Assembly: GCA_963768855.1 (NCBI GenBank)
Contig: CAVYJM010000012.1
Coordinates: 29,451-93,450 of the forward strand
Direction of reading: 5' to 3'
From: an uncultured Thermoplasmata archaeon
GTDB taxonomy: Archaea > Thermoplasmatota > Thermoplasmata > RBG-16-68-12
DNA length: 64,000 nt
The notes under the pieces are model-generated. The model worked only from the letters and a program-made list of their open reading frames with translations. It did not search any database and had not been told where the DNA came from. The position numbers and the translations under genes are program-made. Positions 22,441 to 48,888 of the stretch are shown here, in pieces (position 1 is the first letter of the stretch; each line of letters starts with the position of its first letter).

Positions 22441-22446
22441 GTGGTT

Positions 22447-24832: not shown

Positions 24833-25158
24833 GCGTTTGGTAGGTGTCCCGGAGTGCGTCGTCGCGGGCCCGTTGAGGCGGGCCGAACCGCCTCCCGCGA
24901 GCTATTTTTATCCAGCTTGGATTATGGAAATCCTGCCGCATCGATGCCTCGGTCGCAAGCCGCGCCGGACTCAACTCCGGGACGAATCCATGGCACGGAG
25001 AGGACGGCGGATGACGGCTCCATGAGCGCTCGCCGAATCGTGTTTGAGGAACGCCGAAATCCGGAGACGCGGCGCGGTCGTAGCGCCGCGCCTTCGCGCT
25101 CGCCCAGCACAAGGTTTAAGTCTAATCCTTCTTTGTCGCAAACACCCGGAGACGCTCC

Positions 25159-25812: not shown

Positions 25813-26102
25813 CCACGCTGATCCGGAGCGACGCGCCGCGACGGAGCGCCATGGCGGCCGTCGCCATCGCGGGCCTCGTGATCGGCAGCCTCTGGTTCAG
25901 CGCCCTCAGCATCTTCCTCGCCCTCCAGGCCGCCAGCGGGGTCTACCCGAACGACGTGAACGTCTACATGTCCCTCTTCCTCGGCATGGTCTTCGTCTGC
26001 GCGACGGTGGCCGTGGACATCTATCGCAGAGAGTTCATGCCCGACGAGCTCATCCATAAGATCCGGCGGCCCAAGCTGGTCCCGCCGAGGATGTTCCGCT
26101 GA
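25809..26102 (+). CDS. small two-TM membrane protein of the Rieske/cyt b cluster
   Basis: The GTG at 25809 overlaps the upstream stop (GTGA). 97 aa with two hydrophobic helices. No family recognised. Confidence 0.5.
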   Translation: MTTLIRSDAPRRSAMAAVAIAGLVIGSLWFSALSIFLALQAASGVYPNDVNVYMSLFLGMVFVCATVAVDIYRREFMPDELIHKIRRPKLVPPRMFR

Positions 26103-26110
26103 GGTGGTCC

Positions 26111-26893: not shown

Positions 26894-26902
26894 GGTGGTG
26901 CG

Positions 26903-27679: not shown

Positions 27680-27687
27680 GGTGGGTC

Positions 27688-28998
27688 ATGGAAATCGAGA
27701 AGGTCAAGGAGAAGGTGATGGAGGGCCGGCCGGGCTTCACCCGGCAGTACGGGCCGTCCCGCTCGGACCACCAGCCGGGAATCCCCTTCTTCCCCCAGGA
27801 GATCACCCGCGACGTGGTCGTCTCCTTCCTGCTCATCGCGATCCTCTTCTTCCTGACGGCCGCCGTCGTGCCCGCCCTGGGGCCGCCGCGGGCGGAGAAC
27901 CTCTCCGAGCTCATCGTGCCGGACTGGTACCTCCTGTTCTCCTGGGGCCTCCTGAAGATCGGCGACATCTTCCCGAGCTTCATCCTCGGAGCGGGGACGC
28001 CCCTCGAGACCCAGTTCAACGCGGCGTTCTGGGGGGACATCCTCAGCGGCATCCCGGTCATCTTCCTCCTGGTCCTGCCGTTCCTGGATCGCGGCCGCGA
28101 GGCGCGTCCCGCGAAGGCACCGTTCCGGTCCGCCCTCGGGATCTCCTTCCTGCTCGTCTGGACGTTCTCCGCCTCCCTGTACGCAATCCGCGAGGTCATC
28201 GAGCAGCGGTGGCAGAGCCCGAACGGGGCGACCCTGTTCCCGGACGACGCCCTGAAATGGCTCTTCGTCCTGCCCGCCGTCCTGGCCTTCTTCGCGACCT
28301 ACATCGCGCTGCGGCGCCTCGGGTTCCAGCCGATGCGCAAGTGGCTTGTGCCTGCGACGGTCCTGCCTTTCCTGGTCGTGGCGGCGCAGTCCCTCCTCAT
28401 CCTGTTCGTGCCCGGCTGGCTCGGCCCGGAGGTCATGCCGTACTGGCTTCAGCTCGCGATCGGCCTGCTCATCCTGTGCGCCGCGACCGGGGCGACCGCC
28501 CTTGCGGTCCTCGTCCTCCCCGAATCGACCGCGCGGCGCGTCGTGCATTGGGTCGGCGGGCTGACCCTGCTGGCCTTCGTCGGCTATCTGGTCGGCCTCT
28601 ACTACACGAGCTACCTCGGATACATGTGGGTCGCCACGGTCCTCGACCCGAACTTCAACACGCTCATCCTGCTCCCCGGGTTCGCGGTCGTCACGGCGTG
28701 GTTCGGCCTGCGGCGGCCGTACAGCTCCTACGAGTACCTGCTCAATGAGTGCTACCAGTGCGGCAAGTGCCACACGGTCTGCCCCGTCACGAAGGTGGAG
28801 GACGACGCACTCGGCGGCCTGAACCTCGTCTACAACAGCTTCAAGAAGCAGCACGACGGCGTCCCACTCTGGACGTGCCTCGCGTGCGACGCGTGTAGCG
28901 CGGTGTGCCCGCTCGACATCAAGTACAGCGACTACATCCTCGAGGAACGTTCGAAGGTCCACGCCCGGGCGGCGGCGGACGGAGGTGAACCGAAATGA
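27688..28998 (+). CDS. fusion protein: cytochrome b C-terminal (subunit IV-like) region + additional TM helices + C-terminal 2x[4Fe-4S] ferredoxin domain
   Basis: From ATG 27688. PDWYLLFSWGLLK is the PDWY-type motif of cyt b C-terminal domains. More hydrophobic helices follow, then CYQCGKCHTVCPV ... CLACDACSAVCPLDIK. Confidence 0.7.
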   Translation: MEIEKVKEKVMEGRPGFTRQYGPSRSDHQPGIPFFPQEITRDVVVSFLLIAILFFLTAAVVPALGPPRAENLSELIVPDWYLLFSWGLLKIGDIFPSFILGAGTPLETQFNAAFWGDILSGIPVIFLLVLPFLDRGREARPAKAPFRSALGISFLLVWTFSASLYAIREVIEQRWQSPNGATLFPDDALKWLFVLPAVLAFFATYIALRRLGFQPMRKWLVPATVLPFLVVAAQSLLILFVPGWLGPEVMPYWLQLAIGLLILCAATGATALAVLVLPESTARRVVHWVGGLTLLAFVGYLVGLYYTSYLGYMWVATVLDPNFNTLILLPGFAVVTAWFGLRRPYSSYEYLLNECYQCGKCHTVCPVTKVEDDALGGLNLVYNSFKKQHDGVPLWTCLACDACSAVCPLDIKYSDYILEERSKVHARAAADGGEPK

Positions 28999-29969
28999 TG
29001 ACCACCGACGAGACGGAGTACGGGCCGGGGCGGACGATCCCCCACCCGATGCTCTTCCGCGTGCTGGACAGCGAGGCGGAGGACACGACGGTCCCGGAGA
29101 TCAAGGTCGAGCACAAGTCCGAGTTCGCGTACTACCCGGGCTGCGTCGACTACTACGACATGGAGATGCAGTTCTCCCACGCAAACTACGGGGACACGAA
29201 CCACGGGATCATCTTCGACTCCTCGATCAAGCTCCTGCGCGCGGTCGGGATCGAGCCGATGATCCTGGACCGGTCCTTCATGAAGTGCTGCGGCCACGAC
29301 CAGCTGTGGCAGGGCAAGGTCGACGTCTTCGAGCGGATGCGGGACTACAACACGAAGATCATCCAGATGCTCGGCGTGAAGACCTTCATCACCTCCTGCG
29401 CGGAGGGCTACCGGACGTTCAAGCTCGACTACAAGCTGCCCGGCGTCCGGGTGGTGCACATCACCCAGATCCTCTACGAGCGCGGCCTGCGCGTGCCGCC
29501 CCAGGGGGACAACGCCAAGAAGATCCGTGTGGCCTACCAGGACCCGTGCCGATCCTGCCGCCAGATGCCCGTGGACCCCGTCTACGAGGAGCCGCGGGAA
29601 CTCATCAAACGCGTCGACAACGCGGAGCTCGTCGAGCTCAAGACGTTCCGCGCGGACGCCCAGTGCTGCGGCGTCGCGCAGATGATGTACTGCAACGACA
29701 AGACGAAGGGCCTGACCCGCAAGCGGATGGACGAGGCCGACGAGGTCGGGGCGGACTACCTGCTGACGGCCTGTCCGAAATGCCTCACGCACTTCGGCTG
29801 CCTCCACCACGAGAACAAGTGGAAGCCCGGCGAGGAGCGCCAGAACTACCGGGTGATGGACATCACCCAGTTCCTCGCGGAGCGCCTCCCCGGCGACTAC
29901 CCGTCCGGCAGCAACGTCGACGCGAAGCGCAAGGAGCCGCCGCTTCCGGGCCGGAAGGGAGGCTGGTGA
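28995..29969 (+). CDS. CCG-domain (cysteine-rich) Fe-S protein, HdrB / HdrD C-terminal / GlcF C-terminal-like
   Basis: 324 aa. Two Cys-rich repeats with YPGC...CCGH and DPC..C...CCGV...CPKC. Its start overlaps the upstream stop (ATGA). Confidence 0.75.
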   Translation: MMTTDETEYGPGRTIPHPMLFRVLDSEAEDTTVPEIKVEHKSEFAYYPGCVDYYDMEMQFSHANYGDTNHGIIFDSSIKLLRAVGIEPMILDRSFMKCCGHDQLWQGKVDVFERMRDYNTKIIQMLGVKTFITSCAEGYRTFKLDYKLPGVRVVHITQILYERGLRVPPQGDNAKKIRVAYQDPCRSCRQMPVDPVYEEPRELIKRVDNAELVELKTFRADAQCCGVAQMMYCNDKTKGLTRKRMDEADEVGADYLLTACPKCLTHFGCLHHENKWKPGEERQNYRVMDITQFLAERLPGDYPSGSNVDAKRKEPPLPGRKGGW

Positions 29970-36679: not shown

Positions 36680-37057
36680 ATGGCACTCCTCGACACCTAC
36701 GGACCAATCGTCATTTTCGCCATCGTGGCTATCCTCTTCCCGCTGGGCACCTTCTTCGCGACCCGCCTGTTCCGCCCGACGAACCCGACCCCGCTCAAGG
36801 ACCTCGTGTACGAGTGCGGCGAGGTGCCGGAGGGCGAGGCCCAGATCGAGTTCCACTTCCAGTACTACATGTTCGCCTTGATCTTCCTGGTCTTCGACGT
36901 CGCAGCGATCTTCCTTCTTCTGTGGGCGTTCGCGTGGGGTGGGCTCCTCGATCCGGCCACCCCTCCCATCGCGCGGTATTCCCCGATCATGTTCCTGATC
37001 ATCATGTTCGTCGCCACGCAGTACGCGCTGAAGAAGGAAGAGGTCATCCACATATGA
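36680..37057 (+). CDS. nuoA: NADH-quinone oxidoreductase-like complex subunit A
   Basis: 125 aa. YECGE and [12 protein letters not shown] motifs. Confidence 0.9.
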
Positions 37058-37590
37058 GCACGGCCCCCGCGCGCGCTCCGGAGATGAACGACCGGCCCGT
37101 GGCGGGCATCGAGGTCGAGGTCCTCGCGGACCTGAAGCGGCAGTTCGGCGCCAAGCTGCTCGAGGCCCGCGTCGTGCGGCCGCTCGTCGTCGAGGTGGCG
37201 ATCGACCGGGCGGACCTCGTCGCCGTGTGCCAGCATCTCAAGGAGGCCGCGCACTTCGAGCACCTCGGATGCATCAGCGCGGTGGACTGGAAGGACCACT
37301 ACGAGAGCGTCTACCACCTGGAGAACTACTACAACGGGTGCGTCGTCCAGATCAACGCGCGGATCCCGCACGACGACCCGAAGATCGCCACGGTGTGTCC
37401 CCTCTGGAACGCCGCGAACTACCACGAGCGGGAGGCCTGGGACCTCATGGGCATCGTGTATGTGGGCCACCCGGACCTGAGGCGCATCTTGCTCCCGGAC
37501 GACTTCAAGTTCCACCCGCTGCGAAAGGACTTCCCTCAGGAGGTCGACCGGCAGTACATCAGCCGCCGCAAGCTCAAGGGAGGGAAGTGA
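37054..37590 (+). CDS. nuoC: Nuo-like complex subunit C
   Basis: From ATG 37054 (ATGA overlap with nuoA). [14 protein letters not shown] and HPLRKDFP motifs. No nuoB lies between A and C. Confidence 0.85.
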
Positions 37591-38685
37591 GTGCCCGAGT
37601 TCTGGATTAACATGGGGCCGCAGCACCCCATGACCCACGGGCTCTGGAATATGAAGGTCAAGGTCGACGGGGAGACGATCACGGACGCGAAACCGGAGAT
37701 CGGATACCTGCACCGCGGCGTCGAGAAGATCGCGGAGGTGCGGGAGTTCCAGAAGGTCATCGTGCTCACGGACCGCCTGTGCTACGTGTCCTCGATCACC
37801 TGGTCCCACGCGTACTGCCTGGCCGTAGAGAAGATGATGGGCGTGGAGGTGCCTGAACGGGGCCAGTACCTCCGGGTGATCTCCCTGGAGTTGCAGCGGA
37901 TCGCCTCGCACCTGATGTGGCTCGCGGCGTACGGCCCGGACCTCGGCCTGCTGACCGTCCTCCTCTGGTCCCTCCGCGAGCGGGAGCTGTTCCTCGACCT
38001 GATCCAGCTCATGTCCGGGATGCGCATGAACCAGAACTACCCGCGGATCGGCGGCGTGCGCAACGACATCCCGGACAACTTCGAGGCGATGTGCAAGCGC
38101 AGCATCACCCACTTCCTCGGGAAGCTGGACAAGGAGTACTCGGCGATGCTCCATGAGTCCAAGATCTTCCACATGCGCACGCAGGGCGTGGGGATGATCT
38201 CCGCCGCGGAGGCGATCAACTGGGGGGTCACGGGTCCGAACCTCCGTGCGTGCGGCGTGAATGTGGACGTGAGGCGCCTGGACCCCTACGAGGTCTACGA
38301 GGAGATGGACTTCGAGCCCCAGGTCTGGAAGGGACCCGACGCCGGCGACTCGTACTCCCGGTTCATCTGCCGGTTCAACGAGATGCGGGAATCGTGCAAG
38401 ATCGTCCTCCAGGCCCTCGCGAAGATGCCGAAGGAGGGTGCCTATCGGACCAAACCGCCGCGCCGCGCGGAGGGCGAGGGCTACGTCCGCACGGAGGATT
38501 CCCGCGGCGAGGCCCTATTTTACGTCCTGGGCGATGGCGACGACCGGCCGTACCGCGTCAAGATCCGCAGCCCGATCTTCTGCACGATGGCCGCGACGCC
38601 AATCATGCTCCGCGGTAACAAGCTCGCGGACAGCGTGGCGATCCTCGGGTCCATCGACGTCTGTGTGGGGGAGATCGACAAGTGA
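37591..38685 (+). CDS. nuoD: Nuo-like complex subunit D
   Basis: 364 aa. MGPQHPMTHG, GYLHRGVEK, RIASHLMWL and a C-terminal GEIDK. Confidence 0.9.
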   Translation: MPEFWINMGPQHPMTHGLWNMKVKVDGETITDAKPEIGYLHRGVEKIAEVREFQKVIVLTDRLCYVSSITWSHAYCLAVEKMMGVEVPERGQYLRVISLELQRIASHLMWLAAYGPDLGLLTVLLWSLRERELFLDLIQLMSGMRMNQNYPRIGGVRNDIPDNFEAMCKRSITHFLGKLDKEYSAMLHESKIFHMRTQGVGMISAAEAINWGVTGPNLRACGVNVDVRRLDPYEVYEEMDFEPQVWKGPDAGDSYSRFICRFNEMRESCKIVLQALAKMPKEGAYRTKPPRRAEGEGYVRTEDSRGEALFYVLGDGDDRPYRVKIRSPIFCTMAATPIMLRGNKLADSVAILGSIDVCVGEIDK

Positions 38686-39935
38686 GCGCCGCCCTGGTCC
38701 CGAGCCTCTTCGGGTCGTGCTACATCCTCACCGGGGCGATCATCTGGATCGTAGACCAGATTCTGTACGCGATCGGCGCCATCATTCCCCCGATCAACGA
38801 CCCGCTCCATGCGCTCGGTGGATGGCTCGCCTCGCCCGGGGTCCTGACGTTCCTGACGTGGTTCGTCATGGTCCTCGTGATGACGATCTGGGCCGTGCTC
38901 CTCAACCTGCTCACGATGATGTGGGTCGAACGCAAGGTGTACAGCCGGCTCCAGGACCGCTATGGGATCATGATCTCGATCTGGTCCCTTCCCCTGTGGC
39001 CCTTCAGCCGCCGCAAGGACCGGCCGACCCACAAGGGCTGGGGCTACCTGCAGAATGTCGCGGATGGGATGAAGCTCCTCCAGAAGGAGAACCTCGTGCC
39101 CGCCACCGCCGACTCGATGATGTTCAACGCGGCGCCTGCGTGGATCGCGGGGACCACACTCATGGTCTTCGCAGCCCTCCCCTGGTCGAGCGGGCTGTAC
39201 GTCGCGAACCTCGATCTGGGCATCCTCTTCATCCTCGCCGCGTTCTCCCTCGCCCCGCTCGGGATTCTGATCGCGGGATGGTCCGCGAACAATAAGTACA
39301 CCCTCGTCGGCGGTCTCCGGTCCGCCGCGATGCTCATGGCGTACGAGATCCCCCTTATCCTCGTCGTCATCGCGCTCGTCTTCACGACGGGCTCCCTCGA
39401 CCCGCAGGTGCTCGTCGCGCAGCAGGAGCGCGCCCTGGTGATCAACGGGGTGACGACGCCGCTGCCGGCGTGGAACCTGTTCGGGCCGCAGATTCTCGGG
39501 TTCCTCGTCTTCATGGTCGCCATCGTCGCCGAGATGGAACGGATCCCGTTCGACCTCCCTGAAGCGGATGCCGAGCTCGTCGAGGGCTGGACGACGGAGC
39601 TCAGCGGGATGCGCTTTGGTCTCGTCTTCGGCTTCAAGTGGCTGCGCATGATTGCCGGGGCGGGACTGATCTCGATCCTGTACCTCGGCGGCTGGAGCGG
39701 GCCCGTGTTCTACACCTTCTACATCGGGAACGTACCGATCCCGATCATCCCGGAGGAGGTCTGGTTCATGCTCCGCATCTACCTCCTTGGGATCTTCTTC
39801 GTCCTCCTCTCATGGTCGGTCCCGCGAGTCCGGATCGACCAGATCCTCGACATCGGATGGAAGCGGCTGATTCCCTTCGCCCTCCTCGCAATCATCGTCG
39901 CCGCCGCGGCGCGCGTCTTCGGCTACATGGGGTGA
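38682..39935 (+). CDS. nuoH: Nuo-like complex subunit H (with an insertion in the first loop)
   Basis: 417 aa. WVERKVYSRLQDRYG ... LQNVADGMKLLQKE, GWSANNKY, RSAAMLMAYE and PFDLPEADAELV motifs. Confidence 0.9.
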   Translation: MSAALVPSLFGSCYILTGAIIWIVDQILYAIGAIIPPINDPLHALGGWLASPGVLTFLTWFVMVLVMTIWAVLLNLLTMMWVERKVYSRLQDRYGIMISIWSLPLWPFSRRKDRPTHKGWGYLQNVADGMKLLQKENLVPATADSMMFNAAPAWIAGTTLMVFAALPWSSGLYVANLDLGILFILAAFSLAPLGILIAGWSANNKYTLVGGLRSAAMLMAYEIPLILVVIALVFTTGSLDPQVLVAQQERALVINGVTTPLPAWNLFGPQILGFLVFMVAIVAEMERIPFDLPEADAELVEGWTTELSGMRFGLVFGFKWLRMIAGAGLISILYLGGWSGPVFYTFYIGNVPIPIIPEEVWFMLRIYLLGIFFVLLSWSVPRVRIDQILDIGWKRLIPFALLAIIVAAAARVFGYMG

Positions 39936-39977
39936 TCCTCGTGAGAAAGTCTGCGAGCGCGGTGCTGGAGGGGTACG

Positions 39978-40259
39978 ATGGCGGTTGACTGGGAGGCCGT
40001 CGCCTTCGTCGTCCTGAGTGGGTTCGAGATCCTCTTCTCGATCCTCCTCGTTACGAGCAAGCGGCTGGTCCGTGCGGCTTTCTGGCTCGCGGCGACCCTG
40101 ATCACGATCGGCGGGATCTACCTCCTGTTCCGCGCCGAATTCGTCTTCCTGATCCAAATCCTCGTCTACGCCGGGGCCGTCCCTCTCCTGTTCGCTTTCG
40201 GTATCATGCTCACGCGCCGCAAGATCATGGAGGAGCCGGGTATGGAGGGGAATCAGTGA
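39978..40259 (+). CDS. nuoJ: Nuo-like complex subunit J, N-terminal part (split nuoJ)
   Basis: 93 aa. AEFVFLIQILVYAGAVPLLFAFGIML is the NuoJ core. Confidence 0.8.
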   Translation: MAVDWEAVAFVVLSGFEILFSILLVTSKRLVRAAFWLAATLITIGGIYLLFRAEFVFLIQILVYAGAVPLLFAFGIMLTRRKIMEEPGMEGNQ

Positions 40260-40522
40260 TTACACAGCGACAGGCGCTCGCCGTCGCCGCGGTCGCGGCC
40301 CTCTTCCTCGTCATGGCAGTCTCCTTCGTCGGCGTGCCCTGGCCGACGACACAGCATGAGATTCCGATCGTCAACACGACATCGCCCTCGGGGAACGCCC
40401 TTGCGAACAATCTCTTCCAATCCTACGCCGTCGCGCTGATCCTGATCGGCATCATCCTCGCCGCCGCGATGGTCGGAGGCGTGTACCTCGCGAAGATGGA
40501 AGGAGGGAAGCTGGGTCCATGA
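40256..40522 (+). CDS. Nuo-like complex subunit J, C-terminal part (split nuoJ)
   Basis: 88 aa. Its start overlaps the upstream stop. The C-terminal helix ILIGIILAAAMVGGVYLAK is typical of the NuoJ end. Confidence 0.65.
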   Translation: MITQRQALAVAAVAALFLVMAVSFVGVPWPTTQHEIPIVNTTSPSGNALANNLFQSYAVALILIGIILAAAMVGGVYLAKMEGGKLGP

Positions 40523-40821
40523 TCCCGCTCGAGTGGGAGCTCGTCCTGTCCGCGCTCCTGTTCAGCATCGGCCTCTACGGGGTCCTCGCCCGGAAGAACG
40601 CGATCATGGTCCTCATGTCCCTGGAAATCGTGATCAACGCGGCGCTCCTGAACTTCGTCGCGTTCAGCTCCTACTCGAACGACGCGAGCGGCCAGGTCTT
40701 CGCCCTCCTGGGCATCGCGGTCGCCGCGGCGGACGCCGCGATCGGCCTCGCGATTTTCCTCTCCATCTACCAGACGCACGGGACCGTCGACATGGACCGC
40801 GTGAGGTTCTTGAGGTGGTAG
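40519..40821 (+). CDS. nuoK: Nuo-like complex subunit K
   Basis: 100 aa. LFSIGLYGVLARKNAIMVLMSLEI and the conserved Glu residues. Confidence 0.9.
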   Translation: MIPLEWELVLSALLFSIGLYGVLARKNAIMVLMSLEIVINAALLNFVAFSSYSNDASGQVFALLGIAVAAADAAIGLAIFLSIYQTHGTVDMDRVRFLRW

Positions 40822-40981
40822 GACGGCGGACTTCTCCTATGTCTGGATCATCCTACTGGCACCGTTCGTCTCGTTCTTCCTCTCGGGTCTGATCGGCCGC
40901 CGGACCCCGCAGGGCGGCGGGTACATCGCGGTCGGCGGCATCCTCGTCTCCTTCGTCGTCTCCCTCATCCTGTTCGTCCAG

Positions 40982-42943
40982 GTGCTCCTGGCGGGCGCCC
41001 TCGGCGGCAACTTCACCCCCGTGACGGTCGACGGCTACGTGTGGCTCCCCGGTTTCAACGCCGCCACCGGGTTCGCGTCCACGAACATCCACATCTCGCT
41101 CCTTATCGACGATCTGAGCGCGCTGATGCTCGTCCTGGTCTCCTTCCTGTGCCTTCTGATCTTCATCTACTCCCTCGGCTACATGCACGCCGAGGAGGGC
41201 AAGCCGCGCTACTACGCGGAGGTCAGCCTGTTCTCCATGGGCATGCTGGGGACGGTCAGCGCGGACAACTTCCTCCAGCTCCTGGTCTTCTGGGAGATCA
41301 TGGGCCTGTGTTCGTACCTCCTCATCGGCTTCTGGTACCACAAGCCCGAGGCGGCGAAGGCCGCGAAGAAGGCCTTCCTCGTCACCCGCGTGGGCGACGT
41401 CCTGTTCCTGATTGGAGTCCTCGTCATCTGGAACGTCTTCGGCACCCTGAGCTTCCTGGACATCCAGCAGAAGATCCCGAGCCTTTGGCAGAGCGGCGTG
41501 CTGTCGCCCCAGCTGCTTACGCTCATCCCCCTCCTCCTTTTCGGCGGCGCGGTCGGGAAGTCCGCCCAGTTCCCGCTGCATGCCTGGCTGCCCGATGCGA
41601 TGGAGGGCCCCACCACGGTGAGCGCCCTCATCCACGCCGCGACGATGGTCAAGGCGGGCGTCTACCTGACCGCCCGGGCGTTCATCTTCCTGGTCCCTCT
41701 CTCGACCGCCACGATCCACGTCACGCCACCGTGGACGGCGATCTACGTGATCGCCGGGATCGGCGGCTTCACCGCCATCTTCGCCGCGACGATGGCCGTG
41801 GTCAACTATGACATCAAGCGCGTCCTCGCGTTCTCGACGATCTCCCAGCTCGCCTACATGTTCCTGGGGCTTGGGGCGGGCGCGTACATCCTGAACGTGA
41901 GCCTCGCGCAGGGCGAGGCGGATTCGGTCGGGTACAGTGCGGCGCTATACCATCTCTTCAACCATGCGTTCTTCAAGGCGCTCCTCTTCCTCTGCGCGGG
42001 CAGCGTGATCCATGCGGTCGGGACGAACGATCTGCGGAAGATGGGTGGCCTCCGGAAGCACATGCCCATCACCTCCTGGACCATGCTCTTCGGCTGCCTC
42101 GCGCTCGCGGGGATCGTCCCGTTCAGCGGGTTCTTCTCGAAGGGGGAGATCCTCTCCGCGACCTTCGAGGCGGGCTCAACCAACTTCCTGTTCCTGGTCC
42201 TCTGGATCTTCGGGACGATCACCGCCTTCCTGACTGCCTTCTACGCGTTCCGTCTGTGGTTCATGACCTTCCGCGGGGAGTACCGCGGCGAAGGCCACCC
42301 GCACGAGTCCCCGCGGACGATGACGGTCCCGCTGATCATCCTCGGCGGCTTCACGCTCATCTCCGGGCTCTCCGCGTACGCGATGGGCGGGTTCGGCAAC
42401 CTCATCTTCTTCGACACGCCGCACTCCCAGCTCCCGCTCGTTGGCGTGCCCCTGCTCGACTACGCCCTCGAGGGGATTTCCCTCGGCGCCGCGCTCGCGG
42501 GGGTCGCGCTCGCGTGGGCCGTGTACGACACGAAGCGGATTCCCGCGGAGCGGTTCACCGCCTCCCGCGGCGGCGCGTTCATCCACAAGATGCTTTCGAA
42601 CCGCTATTGGATCGACAACGTCTACGATGCCTTCGGCGCCAAGGCGTACTGGGGCTTCGCGAAGGCGTTCGACTGGTTCGACCGGCGCGTGATCGACGGC
42701 ATCGTGAACGCGGTCGGGAGGGGAGGCCTAGCGGCCGCCGCGGGATCGGACTACTTCGACCGCAAGGTCGTCGACGGGGCCGTCAACCTGGTGAGCAAGG
42801 AGACCATCCGCTCCGGGATGCGGCTCCGCCAGAGGCAGACGGGCCAGGTGCAGAGCTACGCGTGGGTCGTCGTGTTCGGGATCGCTCTCGTGATCGCGCT
42901 CATCTTCGGGGTCGGCTGGTACCTCCGGCTGAGGGGGGGATGA
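40982..42943 (+). CDS. nuoL: Nuo-like complex subunit L (5' end probably extends to about 40826; lateral helix carries a 26-residue duplication)
   Basis: QFPLHAWLPDAMEGPTTVSALIHAATMVKAGVYL. The same frame upstream of GTG 40982 encodes a typical NuoL first helix (ADFSYVWIILLAPFVSFFLSGLIGRR) but has no ATG/GTG/TTG. Confidence 0.85.
   Translation: MLLAGALGGNFTPVTVDGYVWLPGFNAATGFASTNIHISLLIDDLSALMLVLVSFLCLLIFIYSLGYMHAEEGKPRYYAEVSLFSMGMLGTVSADNFLQLLVFWEIMGLCSYLLIGFWYHKPEAAKAAKKAFLVTRVGDVLFLIGVLVIWNVFGTLSFLDIQQKIPSLWQSGVLSPQLLTLIPLLLFGGAVGKSAQFPLHAWLPDAMEGPTTVSALIHAATMVKAGVYLTARAFIFLVPLSTATIHVTPPWTAIYVIAGIGGFTAIFAATMAVVNYDIKRVLAFSTISQLAYMFLGLGAGAYILNVSLAQGEADSVGYSAALYHLFNHAFFKALLFLCAGSVIHAVGTNDLRKMGGLRKHMPITSWTMLFGCLALAGIVPFSGFFSKGEILSATFEAGSTNFLFLVLWIFGTITAFLTAFYAFRLWFMTFRGEYRGEGHPHESPRTMTVPLIILGGFTLISGLSAYAMGGFGNLIFFDTPHSQLPLVGVPLLDYALEGISLGAALAGVALAWAVYDTKRIPAERFTASRGGAFIHKMLSNRYWIDNVYDAFGAKAYWGFAKAFDWFDRRVIDGIVNAVGRGGLAAAAGSDYFDRKVVDGAVNLVSKETIRSGMRLRQRQTGQVQSYAWVVVFGIALVIALIFGVGWYLRLRGG
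42671..42826 (+). repeat. in-frame tandem duplication within the NuoL lateral helix (period 78 nt / 26 aa)
   Basis: DWFDRRVIDGIVNAV(GRGGLAAAAGS) is followed by DYFDRKVVDGAVNLV(SKETIRSG...). Other NuoL sequences I recall carry a single D..IDG.VN unit. Confidence 0.6.
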
Positions 42944-42944
42944 G

Positions 42945-44561
42945 ATGAGCTACTGGCTCACGATCCTCCTGCTCATCCCGTTCATCGGGTTCATCGTCAC
43001 CTGGGCCGTCGGCAGGACCCAGCGGATCTCCAAGTGGGTCGCGCTCGCGTTCAGCTTGGCGCAGCTCACTCTGCTCACGCTCATCCTCGTGTCCTTCTGG
43101 ACGCCGGCCAGCTCGTGGATCGAGATGCTCCTAGGCCCGAGGATTGCCGACCCCACGAATGGGATCCCGGGAGGCACCCAGTCGGCGTTCTCCTACTTCG
43201 AGAAGGCGAACTGGGTGCCGCAGATCGGGATGAACTACATCCTGGGGTTCGACGGGCTGAGCGTGCCGCTCGCCTGGCTCACGCCGTTGCTGACCACCCT
43301 GGCGATCGTCTTCCACTGGGACGAGGAGCACCGCCCGCGGGAGTTCTTCGCGCTCCTCCTCTTCCTGGAGATGTCCCTCACGGGGGTCTTCATGGCCCTC
43401 GACTTCTTCCTGTTCTTCATCTTCTGGGAGCTCGTCCTGATCCCGATGTTCTTCCTGATCGGGATCTGGGGCGGGCCGAATCGCCGGTACGCCGCCCTGA
43501 AGTTCCTCGTGTACACCCACGTGGCTAGCGTGATCATGCTCCTCTCCATCTTCGCTCTGTACTGGACGTACAGCGGCACGGCGAACGCGGCCGTCTACGG
43601 GACGAGCACGAACACGTTCGACATGACGGTCTTCCTCGAGGCCGCACGGCGCCACGCCGTGAATGGCGCGCTCGCCTACATCCCCCTTGCCACGCAGATC
43701 CCCGTCATGCTCGGGTTCCTCTTCGGGTTCATCGTCAAGCTTCCCTCCTTCCCGTTTCACACCTGGCTGCCGGACGCCCACGTCGAGGCGCCCACGGGCG
43801 GGTCCGTCCTCCTGGCGGGCGTCCTCCTGAAGATGGGCGGCTACGGGATCTTCCGGATCGACCTGGGGATGTTCCCGGATGCGATGCGGGAACTGTGGTG
43901 GGTCCTCGCGGCGCTCGGCATCATCTCGATGGTCTACGCGGCGTTCGTCTGCCTGCACCAGACCGACCTGAAACGACTCATCGCATACTCGTCCGTGGGC
44001 CACATGGGCTTCGTGACCTTGGGCGCCGCCACGCTGACGACGATCGGCGTGGAGGGTGGCATCTTCCAGATGTTCAACCACGGACTGATCACCGCAGTCC
44101 TGTTCATGCTCGCGGGGTCCGTGAAGCACGCGACGGGCACGCGGGAGATTCCGAAGCTGCAAGGCCTCTCGAAGGTGATGCCCCAGTTCTCGCTCATCCT
44201 GATGATTGGGTTCTTCGCCTCTCTGGGCCTGCCGGGACTGAACTCCTTCTGGTCCGAGTTCATGGTCTTCCTCGGGACGTACAGCTCGCAGTCGATGGGG
44301 GCGACGAGGGCCCTCGTCCTCGTGCCCATGGTCTCGATCGTGGTGACCGCGGCTTATTACGTCTACGCGATGCAGCGGATCCTGTTCGGGGACGCGCCGA
44401 AGGAGTTCGAGCACGTCCACGACCTGATGCCGTGGGAGCGCTTTTCCTACGTCATCCTGGTGCTGCTCATCTTCGCGGTCGGCCTCCTGCCGTTTGCGTT
44501 CCTCTCCCTCATTCAGGACTATGCGATCCATGGCCTCCCGTGGCTGATGGGGGCGGTGTGA
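42945..44561 (+). CDS. nuoM: Nuo-like complex subunit M (copy 1)
   Basis: 538 aa. FPFHTWLPDAHVEAPTGGSVLLAGVLLKMGGYG. Confidence 0.9.
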   Translation: MSYWLTILLLIPFIGFIVTWAVGRTQRISKWVALAFSLAQLTLLTLILVSFWTPASSWIEMLLGPRIADPTNGIPGGTQSAFSYFEKANWVPQIGMNYILGFDGLSVPLAWLTPLLTTLAIVFHWDEEHRPREFFALLLFLEMSLTGVFMALDFFLFFIFWELVLIPMFFLIGIWGGPNRRYAALKFLVYTHVASVIMLLSIFALYWTYSGTANAAVYGTSTNTFDMTVFLEAARRHAVNGALAYIPLATQIPVMLGFLFGFIVKLPSFPFHTWLPDAHVEAPTGGSVLLAGVLLKMGGYGIFRIDLGMFPDAMRELWWVLAALGIISMVYAAFVCLHQTDLKRLIAYSSVGHMGFVTLGAATLTTIGVEGGIFQMFNHGLITAVLFMLAGSVKHATGTREIPKLQGLSKVMPQFSLILMIGFFASLGLPGLNSFWSEFMVFLGTYSSQSMGATRALVLVPMVSIVVTAAYYVYAMQRILFGDAPKEFEHVHDLMPWERFSYVILVLLIFAVGLLPFAFLSLIQDYAIHGLPWLMGAV

Positions 44562-44562
44562 G

Positions 44563-46101
44563 ATGGAGATCACATTCCCCCTCCTGACATACATCATCTT
44601 CATCCCCCTGGTGGGCGCCGTCCTGACCTACGCCCTGGGGCTCTCTGTGCGGGTGGCGAAATGGATTGCCCTCGCCTCGAGCCTGGTCACGCTCGCCTTC
44701 GGATCGTTGCTCCTGGCCGGATTCGTGCTCCCGTCCGACGTGGTGCTCAGCCAGCAGACGATCGGCGGGCAGTCGTACTTCGCGGGGGAGCAGCTCGTAT
44801 GGGTCCCCCAGCTCAACGTGCACTACATCGTGGGCGCCGACGAGCTGTCCGCGGTCCTCATCTTCCTGAACACGCTCCTGACGCCCCTCGCGCTCGCCTT
44901 CAGCTGGGACGAGCGCCACCGCGTCCCGGAGTTCTACGCGATGTTCCTCCTCCTGGAGTGCACGGTGAACGGGATCTTCCTCTCCCTCGACCTGTTCCAG
45001 TTCATTGTCTTCTGGGAGGTCCAGCTCGTCCCGATGTACTTCATCATCGCGGTCTGGGGCGGCCCGCGCCGCAAGTACGCGGCGATGAAGTTCTTCATGT
45101 ACACGTTCCTCGCCAGTCTCCCGCTCCTCGTGTCCATCTTCGCATTTTACTTCTACAGCGGCACGTTCGACATGCGGCAGATCATCGCGACGAGCCCCAT
45201 CCCGCCCGGGACGATTGGCGACCTGATGTTCGTCGCGATGCTCGTGGCCTTCGGCACGAAGCTGCCGACGTTCCCGCTGCACACCTGGCTCCCGGACGCC
45301 CACGTCGAGGCGCCGACCGGCGGCTCCGTGATCCTGGCGGGGATCCTGCTGAAACTCGGAGGCTACGGGCTCATCCGCTTTAACGTCGAGATGATCCCGA
45401 AGGCCGCCGCGGACATGTGGTGGCTCCTCGCCGCGGTCGGGGTGATCTCGATCCTCTACGGGGCCATCGTGTGCCTCGTCCAGAACGACCTCAAACGGAT
45501 GGTCGCGTTCTCGAGCGTGAGCCACATGGGCTTCGTGACGCTCGGGATCGCCGCGGGCGTCTACGGTTTCGCCTACGGCCCCGCGAACCTCCAGGCGGGG
45601 GCCGCCCTGGGTTTCAGCGGCGCGGTCTTCCAGCTCTTCGCCCACGGCCTCGTGTCGGCGGCCCTCTTCATGGTCGCCGGGTCCATCGGCCACAAGATCG
45701 GGACCCGGAACATCTCGGAGCTCGGCGGCATCGCGAAGGTCGCGCCGCGAACGGCGACGTTCATGATGGTGGCCTTCATGGCCTCCCTGGGACTGCCAGG
45801 GCTCGTCGGATTCGCCGCGGAGTACGGCGTGTTCGTCGGCGTCTACGCGGCGTTCGGCCTCTGGGTGTTCGTCCCGATCCTGACCGTCGTGTTCACGGCC
45901 GCGTACTACATCTTCGCGATGCAGCGCAGCCTCTTCGGCCCCCTGAACCCGAAGTGGGAGAAGTATCCTGACATGGAGAAGCACGAGACCCTCCCGCTCT
46001 CCGTCCTCGCCGTGACGTTCGCGATCTTCGGCATCGTCCCGATCGTCATCTACCAGCTCATCACGCCGTGGGCCACGCATCTGCTGGCAGGGCTGTTCTA
46101 G
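44563..46101 (+). CDS. nuoM: Nuo-like complex subunit M (copy 2)
   Basis: 512 aa. FPLHTWLPDAHVEAPTGGSVILAGILLKLGGYG, an M-type rather than N-type signature. Confidence 0.85.
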   Translation: MEITFPLLTYIIFIPLVGAVLTYALGLSVRVAKWIALASSLVTLAFGSLLLAGFVLPSDVVLSQQTIGGQSYFAGEQLVWVPQLNVHYIVGADELSAVLIFLNTLLTPLALAFSWDERHRVPEFYAMFLLLECTVNGIFLSLDLFQFIVFWEVQLVPMYFIIAVWGGPRRKYAAMKFFMYTFLASLPLLVSIFAFYFYSGTFDMRQIIATSPIPPGTIGDLMFVAMLVAFGTKLPTFPLHTWLPDAHVEAPTGGSVILAGILLKLGGYGLIRFNVEMIPKAAADMWWLLAAVGVISILYGAIVCLVQNDLKRMVAFSSVSHMGFVTLGIAAGVYGFAYGPANLQAGAALGFSGAVFQLFAHGLVSAALFMVAGSIGHKIGTRNISELGGIAKVAPRTATFMMVAFMASLGLPGLVGFAAEYGVFVGVYAAFGLWVFVPILTVVFTAAYYIFAMQRSLFGPLNPKWEKYPDMEKHETLPLSVLAVTFAIFGIVPIVIYQLITPWATHLLAGLF

Positions 46102-46112
46102 GGGGCGAGAAG

Positions 46113-47702
46113 ATGGGGAACTATCTGGTCTTCCTGCCCGAGACGATCCTTGTGGTCGTCGGCTTCGCATCGATCGTCCTCGGTTTCGCATGGGGGAAGC
46201 GCCCCGTGTACCTCTGGGCGATGGCCCTCGCCGGGACCCTCGTCTCCCTCGTGATTACGCTCGACATGATGGGCGTCGGGCTCTCCGGTCTGCTCGGCCT
46301 TCAGCTCTGGCCGGCGCCGATCGGGCTGCAAGGGGACTTCACGGGGGAGCTCAAGCTCCGGGTCGACGCGTTCGCTCTCCTGTTCCACCTGGTCTTCCTG
46401 CTGATTGGGTTCCTGGCCATCCTGGCCTCCCGGGGCTTCATCCACGCAGACGAGCCGCACCAGGGCGAGTACTACGGGCTCATGCTCCTCGCGATCGTCG
46501 GCATGATGTTCACGGCCGCGGCGACCGACCTGTTCGTCCTCTTCCTCGCGTTCGAGACCTCGAGCATGAGCACCTTCGCGCTCGTGGCCTTCCGCAAGAA
46601 GGACAAGGAGTCCACGGAGGCCGCGGTGAAGTTCTTCATCATCGGGGCGATCAGTTCGTCGATCATCCTCTTCGGGATCTCCCTGATCTACGGCGTCTCG
46701 GGCTCGACCGCGATCGGACCTACTCTCGACCTCACGAAGCTCCAGATGGGACTCACGATCTCCGCGAATCCCGGGATGGAGCCGCCCCTCATCGTTGCGC
46801 TCGTCCTGCTCGTCGCGGGCTTCGGCTTCAAGGCCGCGGTGGTCCCCTTCCACATGTGGGCGCCCGACGTGTACCAGGGCTCGCCCACCACGATCAGCAC
46901 CTTCCTGGCCGCGGGCTCGAAGATGGTCGGCGTCGTCGCCCTCTTCCGGGTCTTCCTCATCGGGCTCCTGTCGATCCAGATCGACTGGGTGATCGCGATC
47001 GCGGTCCTGGCCATCGCCACGCAGACCGTCGGCAACGTGCTCGCGATCCCGCAGCGGAGCGTGAAGCGCATGCTCGCGTACTCGAGCATCGCCCAGGTGG
47101 GGTACATCCTCATCGCGATCCCGGTCGGGGCCGTCGCGCTGAGCGCGGGCAGCTCGGACCCGGCCGTCTCGGCGGCAGCCATCACCGTGGCGACCGCCGC
47201 CCTCATCGGCGCGGGCTTCCACGTGCTGACGTACGCCGCGATGAAGGGGGGCGCCTTCCTCGTCGTCGCGGGGACCCAGTCGCGCGGCATCGCGGACGAC
47301 ATGGACGCCTACCGCGGTCTGAGCCGCCGCATGCCCTTCATGGCCGCTGCGATGACCATCTTCCTGCTGAGCCTAGCGGGCATCCCGCCGCTCGCGGGAT
47401 TCTTCAGCAAGTTCTTCCTCTTCTCGAGTGCGATCAGCGCGATGCAGTTCAGCCCGTGGTACGTCGTGCTGGCGATCTCCGGGGTCCTGAACAGCGCGCT
47501 CTCCATGTACTACTACGCGCGGGTCATCTGGTACATGTACATCCTGGAGCCTGAGGGGGAGGTCGTCAAGATGGAGGCACCGCGGTCGATCTCGGCGGGC
47601 GTCTTCATCTCTTTGGGGATCGTGTTCCTGACCGCTCCGCTCGCGTTCTGGATCCTGAACTTCCTGAACATCGCCGCGCGGTCGTTCTTCGGCTTCCCGT
47701 GA
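46113..47702 (+). CDS. nuoN: Nuo-like complex subunit N
   Basis: From ATG 46113. PFHMWAPDVYQGSPTTISTFLAAGSKMVG is the N-type signature. Confidence 0.9.
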   Translation: MGNYLVFLPETILVVVGFASIVLGFAWGKRPVYLWAMALAGTLVSLVITLDMMGVGLSGLLGLQLWPAPIGLQGDFTGELKLRVDAFALLFHLVFLLIGFLAILASRGFIHADEPHQGEYYGLMLLAIVGMMFTAAATDLFVLFLAFETSSMSTFALVAFRKKDKESTEAAVKFFIIGAISSSIILFGISLIYGVSGSTAIGPTLDLTKLQMGLTISANPGMEPPLIVALVLLVAGFGFKAAVVPFHMWAPDVYQGSPTTISTFLAAGSKMVGVVALFRVFLIGLLSIQIDWVIAIAVLAIATQTVGNVLAIPQRSVKRMLAYSSIAQVGYILIAIPVGAVALSAGSSDPAVSAAAITVATAALIGAGFHVLTYAAMKGGAFLVVAGTQSRGIADDMDAYRGLSRRMPFMAAAMTIFLLSLAGIPPLAGFFSKFFLFSSAISAMQFSPWYVVLAISGVLNSALSMYYYARVIWYMYILEPEGEVVKMEAPRSISAGVFISLGIVFLTAPLAFWILNFLNIAARSFFGFP

Positions 47703-47760: not shown

Positions 47761-48888
47761 ATGCCGCCCGAGCCCGAGGCGAGCCGCCACGTGGTCCTCC
47801 ATGTGGACATGGACGCCTTCTACGCCGCAGTGGAGATCCGGGAACACCCGGATCTCGCGGGGAAGCCCGTGGTCGTCGGCGCGGACCCGCGGGACGGCCA
47901 CACCCGCGGCGTCGTCCTCACGGCGAGCTACGAGGCGCGCCGGTTCGGCGTGCACTCCGCGATGCCCTGCACCCAGGCGCTCCGCCTCTGCCCCGAGGCC
48001 GTGTTCGTCATGCCCCACCACGGCCTGTACGGGCGGGTTTCCCAGGAGATCATGGCCACATTGCACCGGTACGCGGACCGCCTCGAGCCCTCGGGGATCG
48101 AGGAGGGCTACCTCGACCTCACCGCGCGGTCCGGCGGGGATTTCCTCCGCGCAACGGAGGTCGCGAAAGAGGTGAAGGCCGCCATCCGGACGGAGCACCG
48201 GCTGAGTTGCTCGATCGGCATCGCGCCGAGCAAGGCCGTCGCGAAGATCGCCTCGGACTTCCAGAAGCCAGACGGCCTGACGGTCGTCCTGCCGGACCAC
48301 GTCGTCGAGTTCCTCGCGCCGATCTCGATTCGCAAGGTGTACGGCGTCGGCCCGAAGACGGCGGAGCGGCTCCGGGAGATGGGGCTCGAGTCGATCGGGG
48401 ACGTCCAGGCGATGCCCCGCGAAGACCTCGTGGAAACGCTGGGCGGGTTCGGCGAGTACCTGCACGACGTGGCGTTCGGCCGGGATGCTGGAGAGGTCGT
48501 CGAGCCCACCGGTCCCCCCGAGTCGATCAGCACGGAGACCACGTTCTCGCGGGACCTCGCGAGCTACGAAGAGGTCTGGCCCGAACTGGAGGACCTCGCC
48601 CGCTCGCTGCACGCCCAGCTCCTCGAGGAGCACTACTCCTACCGGACCGTGTCGCTCAAGGTGAAGTACTCCAATTTCGAGGTCCACACGCGCTCTCGCA
48701 GCCTCAAGGTGTACACCGCCGATCTGGAGCCGATTCTGGTCCTGTGCCAGGTCCTGCTCAAGGAGGTCCTCCTTTCCGAACGCAAGGTGCGGCTCATCGG
48801 CGTGCGGCTGTCGAACCTCACGGAGCACCCGGCGCCTCAGGCCACCCTCGCCCGCTGGTCGCCCGTCGCCGCGGCTAGAGGACCTTGA
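47761..48888 (+). CDS. dinB: Y-family DNA polymerase IV (Dpo4/DinB)
   Basis: VVLHVDMDAFYAAVE, SIGIAPSK and KVYGVGPKT motifs. Confidence 0.9.
   Translation: MPPEPEASRHVVLHVDMDAFYAAVEIREHPDLAGKPVVVGADPRDGHTRGVVLTASYEARRFGVHSAMPCTQALRLCPEAVFVMPHHGLYGRVSQEIMATLHRYADRLEPSGIEEGYLDLTARSGGDFLRATEVAKEVKAAIRTEHRLSCSIGIAPSKAVAKIASDFQKPDGLTVVLPDHVVEFLAPISIRKVYGVGPKTAERLREMGLESIGDVQAMPREDLVETLGGFGEYLHDVAFGRDAGEVVEPTGPPESISTETTFSRDLASYEEVWPELEDLARSLHAQLLEEHYSYRTVSLKVKYSNFEVHTRSRSLKVYTADLEPILVLCQVLLKEVLLSERKVRLIGVRLSNLTEHPAPQATLARWSPVAAARGP

What the first reader, a model, noticed from the sequence alone, without database searches (positions are those of the whole stretch)
42671..46101. Two tandem nuoM genes plus a 26-residue duplication in the NuoL lateral helix ('2M'-type complex I)
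Seen: 42945..44561 and 44563..46101 both carry the M-type HTWLPDAHVEAPTGGSV signature, and a separate N-type subunit follows. In NuoL, the amphipathic lateral-helix segment DWFDRRVIDGIVNAV… is repeated exactly 26 residues later as DYFDRKVVDGAVNLV…. Established (from my recollection of Chadwick et al., ISME J 2018): some bacterial complex I clusters have a second nuoM and a NuoL lateral helix lengthened by roughly this amount to span the additional antiporter-like subunit, implying an extra proton channel. Inference: this archaeal operon appears to have the same solution, and the helix extension is visibly generated by internal duplication.
Basis: partly seen in the sequence, partly recalled or inferred. 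Interest (0 to 1): 0.7.

Follow-up and report, generated by a model that had tools for sequence, protein, structure and literature searches.

The report
Archaeal complex I with extra NuoM
This soil archaeon's respiratory complex I operon has a second proton-channel subunit (NuoM) and a NuoL clamp helix lengthened by a 26-residue internal repeat, a design already described as "2M complex I"; a close relative lost both additions together.

Summary
nuoL (40823-42943) is followed by two intact nuoM genes, Ma (42945-44561) and Mb (44563-46101), which are 44% identical. Both score far above the NCBIfam NuoM cut-off. nuoN follows.

The NuoL lateral helix carries DWFDRRVIDGIVNAV and DYFDRKVVDGAVNLV exactly 26 residues apart (z about 10 against shuffles). 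With one copy removed, the C-terminus aligns without gaps to solved NuoL/NdhF chains.

The interpretation (2M-type complex I) is supported but not new. The type is published for Nitrospira, Chloroflexi and Thaumarchaeota. It is also published for Ca. Angelarchaeales (Thermoplasmata), whose respiratory gene cluster this window matches.

- The arrangement is fixed in more than 45 related loci.
- In every separate lineage I sampled with a lengthened helix, the extension is a second copy of the same FDxxV(I/V)DGxVN module.
- One soil sublineage nested inside the 2M clade reverted to one M. Its single M is an Ma/Mb hybrid, and its NuoL lost exactly one repeat.

The reversion is strong comparative evidence that helix length and M copy number are coupled. 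Assembly of four antiporter-like subunits and a fifth pumped proton remain untested.

The parts
36680..37057 (+). nuoA
   Evidence: Pfam Oxidored_q4, 76 bits
37054..37590 (+). nuoC (30 kDa subunit). nuoB is absent between A and C.
   Evidence: Pfam Complex1_30kDa, 137 bits. ATG at 37054 overlaps the nuoA stop. Same gene order in L082-L084.
37591..38685 (+). nuoD (49 kDa subunit)
   Evidence: Pfam Complex1_49kDa, 277 bits
38682..39935 (+). nuoH. No nuoI follows it.
   Evidence: Pfam NADHdh, 298 bits. No NuoI or NuoB homologue anywhere in the window.
39978..40522 (+). nuoJ split into two genes (39978-40259 and 40256-40522)
   Evidence: Pfam Oxidored_q3: N-terminal half and C-terminal half on separate ORFs. 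Same split in L001, L082-L084 and L165.
40519..40821 (+). nuoK
   Evidence: Pfam Oxidored_q2, 101 bits
40823..42943 (+). nuoL, 706 codons, with an extended lateral helix. It starts at a non-canonical ACG one base after the nuoK stop; the first canonical start is GTG at 40982.
   Evidence: TIGR01974 NDH_I_L, 545 bits against a cut-off of 407.5. Solved NuoL/NdhF chains are the best sequence and fold matches. N-terminus and start codon.
42671..42748 (+). Lateral-helix repeat unit 1 (NuoL residues 617-642, DWFDRRVIDGIVNAVGRGGLAAAAGS)
42749..42826 (+). Lateral-helix repeat unit 2 (NuoL residues 643-668, DYFDRKVVDGAVNLVSKETIRSGMRL), followed by RQRQTGQVQSY and TM16
   Evidence: With one unit removed, the C-terminus aligns without gaps to solved chains.
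42945..44561 (+). nuoM copy a (Ma), 538 aa
   Evidence: TIGR01972, 504 bits. The Ma orthologue clade has 99% bootstrap.
44563..46101 (+). nuoM copy b (Mb), 512 aa
   Evidence: TIGR01972, 484 bits. The Mb orthologue clade has 100% bootstrap. Best solved match is Paracoccus Nqo13.
46113..47702 (+). nuoN
   Evidence: TIGR01770 NDH_I_N is the best family, 326 bits against a cut-off of 332.6. ATG at 46113.

Best explanation
The window carries the membrane-arm operon (nuoA-C-D-H-J1-J2-K-L-Ma-Mb-N) of a '2M-type' complex I from a Thermoplasmata archaeon. Its gene neighbourhood matches the respiratory cluster described for Ca. Angelarchaeales.

The proposed history is as follows. An ancestral nuoM duplicated in tandem within this archaeal lineage, and both copies kept the channel residues. 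A 26-residue module of the NuoL lateral helix (core FDxxV(I/V)DGxVN) also duplicated in tandem. This lengthened the helix by about 39 A if it is helical (26 x 1.5 A). That is roughly the width of one antiporter-like subunit (from my recollection of solved structures), so the helix and its TM16 anchor could still span L-M-M-N.

Shown here: gene content, family assignment, the exact size and repeat nature of the extension, its conservation, and the joint loss of one M and one repeat in a derived sublineage.

Inferred: that all four antiporter-like subunits sit in one complex, their order, and that a fifth proton is moved per two electrons (Chadwick's hypothesis). The electron donor is unknown. 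nuoEFG is absent, and nuoB and nuoI are encoded outside the window.
For: - **Two genuine NuoM genes.** They sit 1 nt apart, in operon order L-Ma-Mb-N.
- **Channel residues.** The TM5 Glu (FWE), TM7 Lys (KLP..P.HTWLPDAH), TM8 Lys (LLKxGGYG) and TM12 Glu (GLPG..F..E) motifs are present in both copies and align to solved Nqo13.
- **NuoL extension.** NuoL is 26 residues longer in the lateral helix only. There is one clean 26-column gap against P0068, which is 73% identical. The version with one repeat removed is collinear with solved chains 6hum_F, 9grx_F, 6tjv_F and 8e9g_L.
- **Repeat significance.** z is about 10.
- **Conservation.** 119 of 120 closest NuoL homologues keep both units. 81 of 83 related loci (80 metagenome loci plus L082-L084) have an identical-length helix, with both units more than 90% conserved at most core positions. 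43 of 49 loci that reach nuoN show L-Ma-Mb-N cleanly; five of the other six have an M split or missed in my ORF scan, and in L153 only one M was listed. L082-L084 are also 2M.
- **Wider sample of GTDB genomes.** The helix span is bimodal (51-53 against 77-80 residues). All 7 loci with two M genes have the long form, and 0 of 26 short-form loci have two M (Fisher p = 5e-4).
- **Natural reversal.** L001 and L165 nest with 100% bootstrap inside the duplicated-helix clade in a tree that excludes the helix. They have L-M-N in the same synteny. Their M is Ma-like to about residue 260 and Mb-like from about residue 320. Their NuoL lacks exactly one repeat. All three genes show mostly synonymous differences between the two contigs.
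- **Literature.** The second NuoM and the lengthened NuoL define the 2M type (PMC6606698, PMC9040806). Angelarchaeales complex I has an extra M and lacks EFG (PMC9038741).
Against: - No structural evidence. AlphaFold2 single-chain models give pLDDT below 50 across the lateral helix in both the long and the short NuoL. No solved complex with four antiporter-like subunits turned up among the NuoL sequence and fold matches.
- The coupling is not one-to-one in other lineages. L014 (second operon), L015, L021, L031, L049, L053 and L059 have a duplicated helix module but only one nuoM in cis. PMC9040806 reports the same for Manganitrophaceae.
- nuoB and nuoI are missing from the 64 kb window, so the operon alone does not encode a working enzyme.
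- nuoL has no canonical start codon at its conserved N-terminus.
- The sister relationship of Ma and Mb has only 56-87% bootstrap in simple NJ trees.
Confidence: 0.82

Rival explanations
1. The two M proteins are alternative isoforms, with one M per complex swapped by condition. In this reading the longer helix serves another purpose, such as binding a lineage-specific partner.
For: Several lineages carry the duplicated helix module with only one nuoM in cis. Ma and Mb have diverged strongly (44% identity) and each has its own insertion.
Against: The genes are 1 nt apart in one operon. Every sampled locus with two M genes has the long helix, and no short-helix locus has two M. The revertant lost one M and one repeat together. 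Both paralogue clades have been retained since before the split from L002 and L019.
Confidence: 0.08
2. The 26 extra residues are an unrelated insertion that merely resembles the neighbouring motif. In this reading it is convergence on an amphipathic pattern, not a duplication.
For: Only 15-21 of the 26 positions are similar. The 11-residue linker has no counterpart, and DNA identity is 53%.
Against: The self-match is 10 SD above shuffles and is the best in the whole protein. At family consensus level 12 of the 15 core positions are identical. The same module is doubled at a 26-27 residue spacing in Deltaproteobacteria, Chloroflexota, Bacillota, Njordarchaeota and other lineages. The revertant's junction is a hybrid of the two units, as expected from recombination between homologous repeats.
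Confidence: 0.05
3. The locus is decaying or is an assembly artefact. In this reading nuoL is a pseudogene, or the tandem M arose from mis-assembly.
For: nuoL has no canonical start codon before residue 54. nuoB and nuoI are missing from the window.
Against: All ORFs are intact. The same ACG or CTG codon recurs in 11 independent assemblies. The architecture recurs in more than 45 independent contigs. The two M copies are too divergent to be collapsed or duplicated by an assembler.
Confidence: 0.03

Closest known systems
Complex I of Ca. Angelarchaeales (GTDB order RBG-16-68-12, Thermoplasmatota), Diamond et al. 2022 (PMC9038741)
   Same: The paper describes complex I lacking NuoEFG with an additional M subunit. 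It places this next to a V/A-type ATPase and a cytochrome-b complex III-like locus with hdrD-like and rnfB-like genes. It also lists an ammonium transporter among the conserved genes. The window holds all of these. The closest named NuoL hits are soil 'Thermoplasmata archaeon' MAGs.
   Different: In the passages my term searches returned, the paper does not mention the NuoL helix extension, its repeat nature, the split nuoJ, the absence of nuoB and nuoI from the cluster, or 1M revertants. I did not place the window phylogenomically, so membership of the order is inferred from gene context and G+C content (about 66%).
2M complex I of Chadwick et al. 2018 (Nitrospira clade 3; Thaumarchaeota clade 2; Chloroflexi), as summarised in PMC6606698, PMC7300363, PMC7117926 and PMC9040806
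   Same: A second NuoM plus a lengthened NuoL, with an insertion of about 26 aa in the lateral helix. The 2M clusters of Thaumarchaeota lack NuoEFG and that of Nitrospira lacks NuoE and NuoF. Part of the peripheral-arm genes lie elsewhere, as nuoBCDI do in Chloroflexi.
   Different: The M duplication here is specific to Thermoplasmata. The nearest outgroups are single-copy euryarchaeal NuoM/FpoM (other Thermoplasmata, Syntropharchaeum, Methanohalophilus), not bacterial or thaumarchaeal M.
Complex_I_3 of Ca. Manganitrophaceae (PMC9040806)
   Same: A conserved 26-aa insertion in the C-terminal amphipathic helix goes with an extra NuoM.
   Different: There the helix belongs to an MrpD-like subunit that replaces NuoL, and the complex has five pumping subunits.
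Canonical complex I and NDH-1 with three antiporter-like subunits (solved structures such as 4he8, 3rko, 6hum, 8qby, 8e9g)
   Same: NuoL, M and N are clear homologues. NuoL matches at E 1e-115 to 1e-79 by sequence and at TM-score 0.66-0.70 by fold. After one repeat is removed, the helix and TM16 are collinear.
   Different: The window has one more M, 26 more helix residues, no NuoEFG, a split NuoJ, and NuoB and NuoI encoded elsewhere.

Membership tests
2M-type complex I | Two NuoM-family genes within one nuo gene cluster, beside a single NuoL and a single NuoN | tested here: met
   TIGR01972 scores 504 and 484 bits (cut-off 263.8). TIGR01974 for L scores 545 bits. N's best family is TIGR01770 at 326 bits (cut-off 332.6)..
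2M-type complex I | NuoL lateral helix lengthened by about 26 residues | tested here: met
   A single 26-column gap against the 1M relative. Helix span is 77 residues against 51-53 in 1M loci. The version with one repeat removed aligns without gaps to solved chains.
2M-type complex I | Both M copies keep the conserved charged channel residues (TM5 Glu, TM7 Lys, TM8 Lys, TM12 Glu) | tested here: met
   The motifs are present in both copies and align to Paracoccus Nqo13. Assigning the motifs to numbered residues rests on my knowledge of the E. coli and T. thermophilus enzymes.
2M-type complex I | Four antiporter-like subunits assembled in one complex under the extended helix | not testable with these tools
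   Only single-chain AlphaFold2 was available, and the helix region has pLDDT below 50.
2M-type complex I | Higher H+/2e- stoichiometry | not testable with these tools
   This is a hypothesis in the literature (PMC6606698, PMC7419157). It needs biochemistry.
2M-type complex I | Assignment to one of the published 2M clades | not tested
   Chadwick et al. 2018 is not in the held library. No thaumarchaeal or Nitrospira reference sequences were retrieved.
   Mrp models score 153-207 bits against cut-offs of 542-662 for Mb. NuoM models are the best matches. The nearest relatives in a 1.8-billion-protein library are NuoM/FpoM.
Ca. Angelarchaeales respiratory gene cluster | Complex I (no EFG, extra M) next to a V/A-ATPase and a cytochrome-b complex III-like locus with hdrD-like and ferredoxin-type genes | tested here: met
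   ATPase subunits at 16428-24477, cytochrome b at 26894-28998 with a Fer4 fusion, and a CCG-domain protein at 28989-29969. Description in PMC9038741.
Ca. Angelarchaeales respiratory gene cluster | Phylogenomic placement in GTDB order RBG-16-68-12 | not tested
   No marker-gene analysis was done. The closest proteins are labelled only 'Thermoplasmata archaeon'.

The most novel reading that the evidence does not exclude
The NuoL lateral helix may act as a modular ruler. One module of about 26 residues (FDxxV(I/V)DGxVN plus a linker) would be added or removed by unequal recombination in step with nuoM copy number.

Two results support this. Every separate lineage I sampled with a long helix gained it by doubling the same module: Thermoplasmata, Njordarchaeota, Chloroflexota, Deltaproteobacteria/Acidobacteria-type and Bacillota. 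One soil Thermoplasmata sublineage (L001, L165) later reversed the change. It fused Ma and Mb at the conserved HTWLPDAHVEAPTGGSV box and deleted exactly one helix module, and it still evolves under purifying selection.

That pair of sister lineages (2M and 1M, 70-84% identical in the other subunits compared, L, N and H) would be a natural experiment for testing whether the extra M adds a pumped proton. I could not check whether Chadwick et al. already described the repeat nature of the insertion. I found no mention of it, or of revertants, in the held literature.
Probability: 0.6. Interest if true: 0.5.

Novelty: already known. Interest (0 to 1): 0.35.

Why it matters
The 2M design is the leading example of a respiratory enzyme raising its proton-pumping capacity by adding a module. 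It is invoked for slow-growing or energy-limited organisms and for reverse electron flow to ferredoxin.

This window adds no new kind of system. The family around it does offer clean comparative evidence that helix length and subunit number are mechanically linked, because they were lost together. It also offers two closely related natural variants (2M and 1M) in which the extra-proton hypothesis could be tested directly.

Tried and rejected
- **Chadwick et al. 2018.** It is not in the held library, by PMC id or by DOI. Everything about it is second-hand from citing papers or from my memory.
- **GTDB genome scan with a NuoL alignment.** It still gave a useful broad sample of L-M-N loci.
- **First helix-span regexes.** They were too strict and were corrected. 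A first count of M genes wrongly dropped Ma because stop-to-stop ORFs overlapped nuoL; this was corrected.
- **AlphaFold2 of the long and short NuoL.** The cores are acceptable (mean pLDDT about 72), but the lateral helix is below 50 in both. The models say nothing reliable about helix continuity across the Gly/Ala-rich linker. The fold search only confirmed NuoL/NdhF/ND5.
- **nuoB and nuoI.** I searched by Fe-S motifs and by tblastn with NuoB/NuoI/FpoB taken from other loci. Neither is in the window, L001, L002 or L019.
- **Asp563 of E. coli NuoL.** I tried to link the duplicated Asp-containing motif to this published residue, but found no usable source, so I dropped it.
- **Thaumarchaeal 2M.** I did not test the relationship directly. 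No thaumarchaeal protein appeared among the ten nearest representative clusters I named.
- **First M tree.** It included the hybrid L001 M, which depressed support for the Ma clade to 51%. Removing the hybrid gave 99% for Ma and 100% for Mb.
Full report
**What is in the window**

The window has about 66% G+C. Its NuoL is 100% identical to a public MAG protein, and the nearest named relatives are 'MAG TPA: Thermoplasmata archaeon'. On the + strand lies a tightly packed operon:

| Gene | Coordinates |
|---|---|
| nuoA | 36680-37057 |
| nuoC | 37054-37590 |
| nuoD | 37591-38685 |
| nuoH | 38682-39935 |
| nuoJ (two genes) | 39978-40259 and 40256-40522 |
| nuoK | 40519-40821 |
| nuoL | 40823-42943 |
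| nuoM copy a (Ma) | 42945-44561 |
| nuoM copy b (Mb) | 44563-46101 |
| nuoN | 46113-47702 |

Upstream are a V/A-type ATPase, a cytochrome-b locus with a ferredoxin-type fusion and an HdrD-like CCG protein, FAD oxidases, TatA/TatC and a molybdopterin oxidoreductase. Downstream are a Y-family polymerase, an ammonium transporter and malic enzyme. This is the layout Diamond et al. describe for Ca. Angelarchaeales (GTDB RBG-16-68-12). They also report complex I without NuoEFG and with an extra M (PMC9038741).

**Checking the observation**

Both M ORFs carry HTWLPDAHVEAPTGGSV. They are 44% identical. They score 504 and 484 bits on TIGR01972 (cut-off 263.8), while Mrp/Mnh models fall far below their cut-offs.

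The two NuoL motifs start at residues 617 and 643, exactly 26 apart. This pair is the best self-match in the whole protein. Its BLOSUM62 score is 61, against 21.4 +/- 4.0 and a maximum of 42 in 2000 shuffles. Only the first 15-21 residues of each unit are alike. The 11-residue tail differs, and DNA identity is 41/78, so the event is old.

**Sizing the insertion**

Three comparisons agree.
- Local alignments to T. elongatus NdhF1, T. thermophilus Nqo12 and M. smegmatis NuoL leave about 30-35 unmatched residues in the helix region.
- A 73%-identical relative (P0068, locus L001) shows one clean 26-column gap.
- I made a version with one repeat removed. It aligns without any gap across the helix and TM16 to 6hum_F, 9grx_F, 6tjv_F and 8e9g_L.

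Twenty-six helical residues correspond to 39 A. From my recollection of solved structures, that is about the width of one antiporter-like subunit.

**Conservation**

119 of the 120 closest NuoL homologues keep both units. Of 83 related loci (80 from the metagenome scan plus L082-L084), 81 have a helix segment of identical length. These give 52 distinct sequences, and both units are over 90% conserved at most core positions. Of the 49 metagenome loci that reach nuoN, 43 show L-Ma-Mb-N cleanly. Five of the other six have an M split or missed in my ORF scan, and in L153 only one M was listed. Three further contigs show the whole A-C-D-H-J-J-K-L-M-M-N cluster in the same synteny.

**Origin of the two M copies**

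With the hybrid removed, the Ma orthologues (window, L082-L084, L002, L019) form a clade at 99% bootstrap and the Mb orthologues at 100%. The duplication therefore predates the split from lineages whose NuoL is only about 55% identical. Ma and Mb together are sisters at 56-87% bootstrap. They stay sisters when 75 representatives from a 1.8-billion-protein library are added. The nearest outgroups are other Thermoplasmata, Syntropharchaeum and Methanohalophilus FpoM. This points to duplication within the lineage, independent of the bacterial 2M pairs. Those pairs sit elsewhere in the tree.

**The same module is doubled in other lineages**

Among 80 loci from GTDB species genomes, the span from the Y-x-D-x-x-Y motif to the QTGxxQxY motif is bimodal: 51-53 or 77-80 residues. 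Every long form contains two copies of FDxxV(I/V)DGxVN, 26-27 residues apart. The long forms occur in Thermoplasmata (L002, L019), Deltaproteobacteria (L024), Thermoflexus and other Chloroflexota (L029, L042, L067, L015, L026), Bacillota (L033), Njordarchaeota (L059) and other bacterial lineages. In an NJ tree of the NuoL core these groups are separated by short-helix lineages, though the deep nodes are not robust.

All 7 loci with two M genes have the long form, and none of 26 complete short-form loci has two M (Fisher p = 5e-4). The reverse does not hold. Seven long-form loci have only one nuoM in cis, as was also noted for Manganitrophaceae (PMC9040806).

**A natural reversal**

L001 and L165 are two contigs from different samples of soil project PRJEB21930. 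Two further protein variants of their NuoL exist. Both contigs carry L-M-N in exactly the family's synteny.

- **Position in the tree.** Their NuoL core nests with 100% bootstrap inside the duplicated-helix clade, closer to the window than the 2M loci L002 and L019. The 1M state is therefore derived.
- **Hybrid M.** Residues 1-330 are 62-66% identical to Ma and 47-51% to Mb. Residues 385-536 are 66-71% identical to Mb and 37-39% to Ma. Sixty-four paralogue-diagnostic columns switch from Ma-type to Mb-type across the conserved HTWLPDAHVEAPTGGSV...LLKMGGYG box. This is the signature of unequal crossing-over between the tandem genes.
- **Shortened NuoL.** It lacks exactly one repeat, and the junction mixes features of both units.
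- **Selection.** Between the two contigs, codon differences are mostly synonymous: L 129:23, M 89:20, N 83:27. The shortened enzyme is under purifying selection and is not an assembly artefact.

One M and one helix module were lost together. This is the strongest evidence available here that the two features are functionally coupled.

**What remains inference**

No tool here could model the multi-subunit arm. Single-chain AlphaFold2 models have pLDDT below 50 over the helix. Among the solved NuoL-type chains matched by sequence or fold, all come from complexes with three or fewer antiporter-like subunits. Assembly of L-M-M-N, the order of Ma and Mb, and a 5 H+/2e- stoichiometry are hypotheses. 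nuoB and nuoI are not in the 64 kb window or in the syntenic clusters, and nuoEFG is absent, so the electron-input side is unknown.

**Comparison with what is known**

The defining features of 2M complex I are a second NuoM and a lengthened NuoL (PMC6606698), with an insertion of about 26 aa (PMC9040806). Both are met. The type is already reported for Thaumarchaeota (PMC7300363) and for Angelarchaeales (PMC9038741). The finding is therefore a correct recognition of a known system.

I could not find three things in the held literature. These are the explicit reading of the extension as a tandem repeat of one module, its recurrence in independent lineages, and the revertant lineage. I could not read the founding paper, so I do not claim that these are new.

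Noticed in passing
window 40811-40990 (nuoK stop to nuoL start): nuoL has no ATG, GTG or TTG at its conserved N-terminus. The codon after the nuoK stop (TAG plus one base) is ACG. The first canonical start (GTG at 40982, used by the public annotation, 653 aa) would delete TM1 and most of TM2. The same ACG occurs in 4 other assemblies and CTG in 6, while 45 relatives have a canonical start at or before this position. This points to a near-cognate start or coupled re-initiation, not a sequencing error.
   Followed up: partly
window 36680-47702; L082, L083, L084, L165: nuoB and nuoI, as well as nuoEFG, are absent from the operon and from the whole 64 kb window. The cluster is consistently A-C-D-H-J-J-K-L-M-M-N in relatives. 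The N2-cluster subunit must be encoded elsewhere.
   Followed up: partly
window 39978-40522: nuoJ is split into two adjacent, overlapping genes (93 and 88 aa) that cover the N- and C-terminal halves of the Pfam model. The split is conserved in all relatives examined.
   Followed up: partly
L001 5255-6865; L165 10865-12475: The single nuoM of a soil sublineage is an Ma/Mb hybrid with its crossover at the conserved HTWLPDAH box. It co-occurs with the loss of exactly one NuoL helix repeat, and it is under purifying selection.
   Followed up: yes
L014 (second operon), L015, L021, L031, L049, L053, L059: These bacterial and Njordarchaeota NuoL genes have a duplicated helix module (span of about 77 residues in six of them; in L053 my span estimate was mis-set but two copies lie 26 residues apart) but only one nuoM in the local cluster. 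Either a second M is encoded elsewhere, or the long helix has another role.
   Followed up: no
window 16428-29969: This stretch is a respiratory supercluster. It holds V/A-type ATPase subunits on the - strand, cytochrome b (26894-27679), a cytochrome-b C-terminal part fused to a 4Fe-4S dicluster domain (27454-28998), and an HdrD-like CCG-domain protein (28989-29969). It matches the unusual complex III neighbourhood described for Angelarchaeales.
   Followed up: partly
window 47761-48888: A Y-family (DinB/IMS) DNA polymerase gene lies directly downstream of nuoN on the same strand. This position is syntenic in every relative examined.
   Followed up: no
window 44563-46101 (Mb) and 42945-44561 (Ma): Each paralogue has its own insertion. 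Mb has about 14 extra residues (VYGFAYGPANLQAG) between the SSVSHMGF motif and the next helix, relative to Ma and to solved Nqo13. Ma has a longer loop at about residues 212-250.
   Followed up: no
L019 6824-8898: nuoL of this Methanomassiliicoccales-labelled MAG is split into two ORFs. This is an apparent frameshift or assembly error.
   Followed up: no
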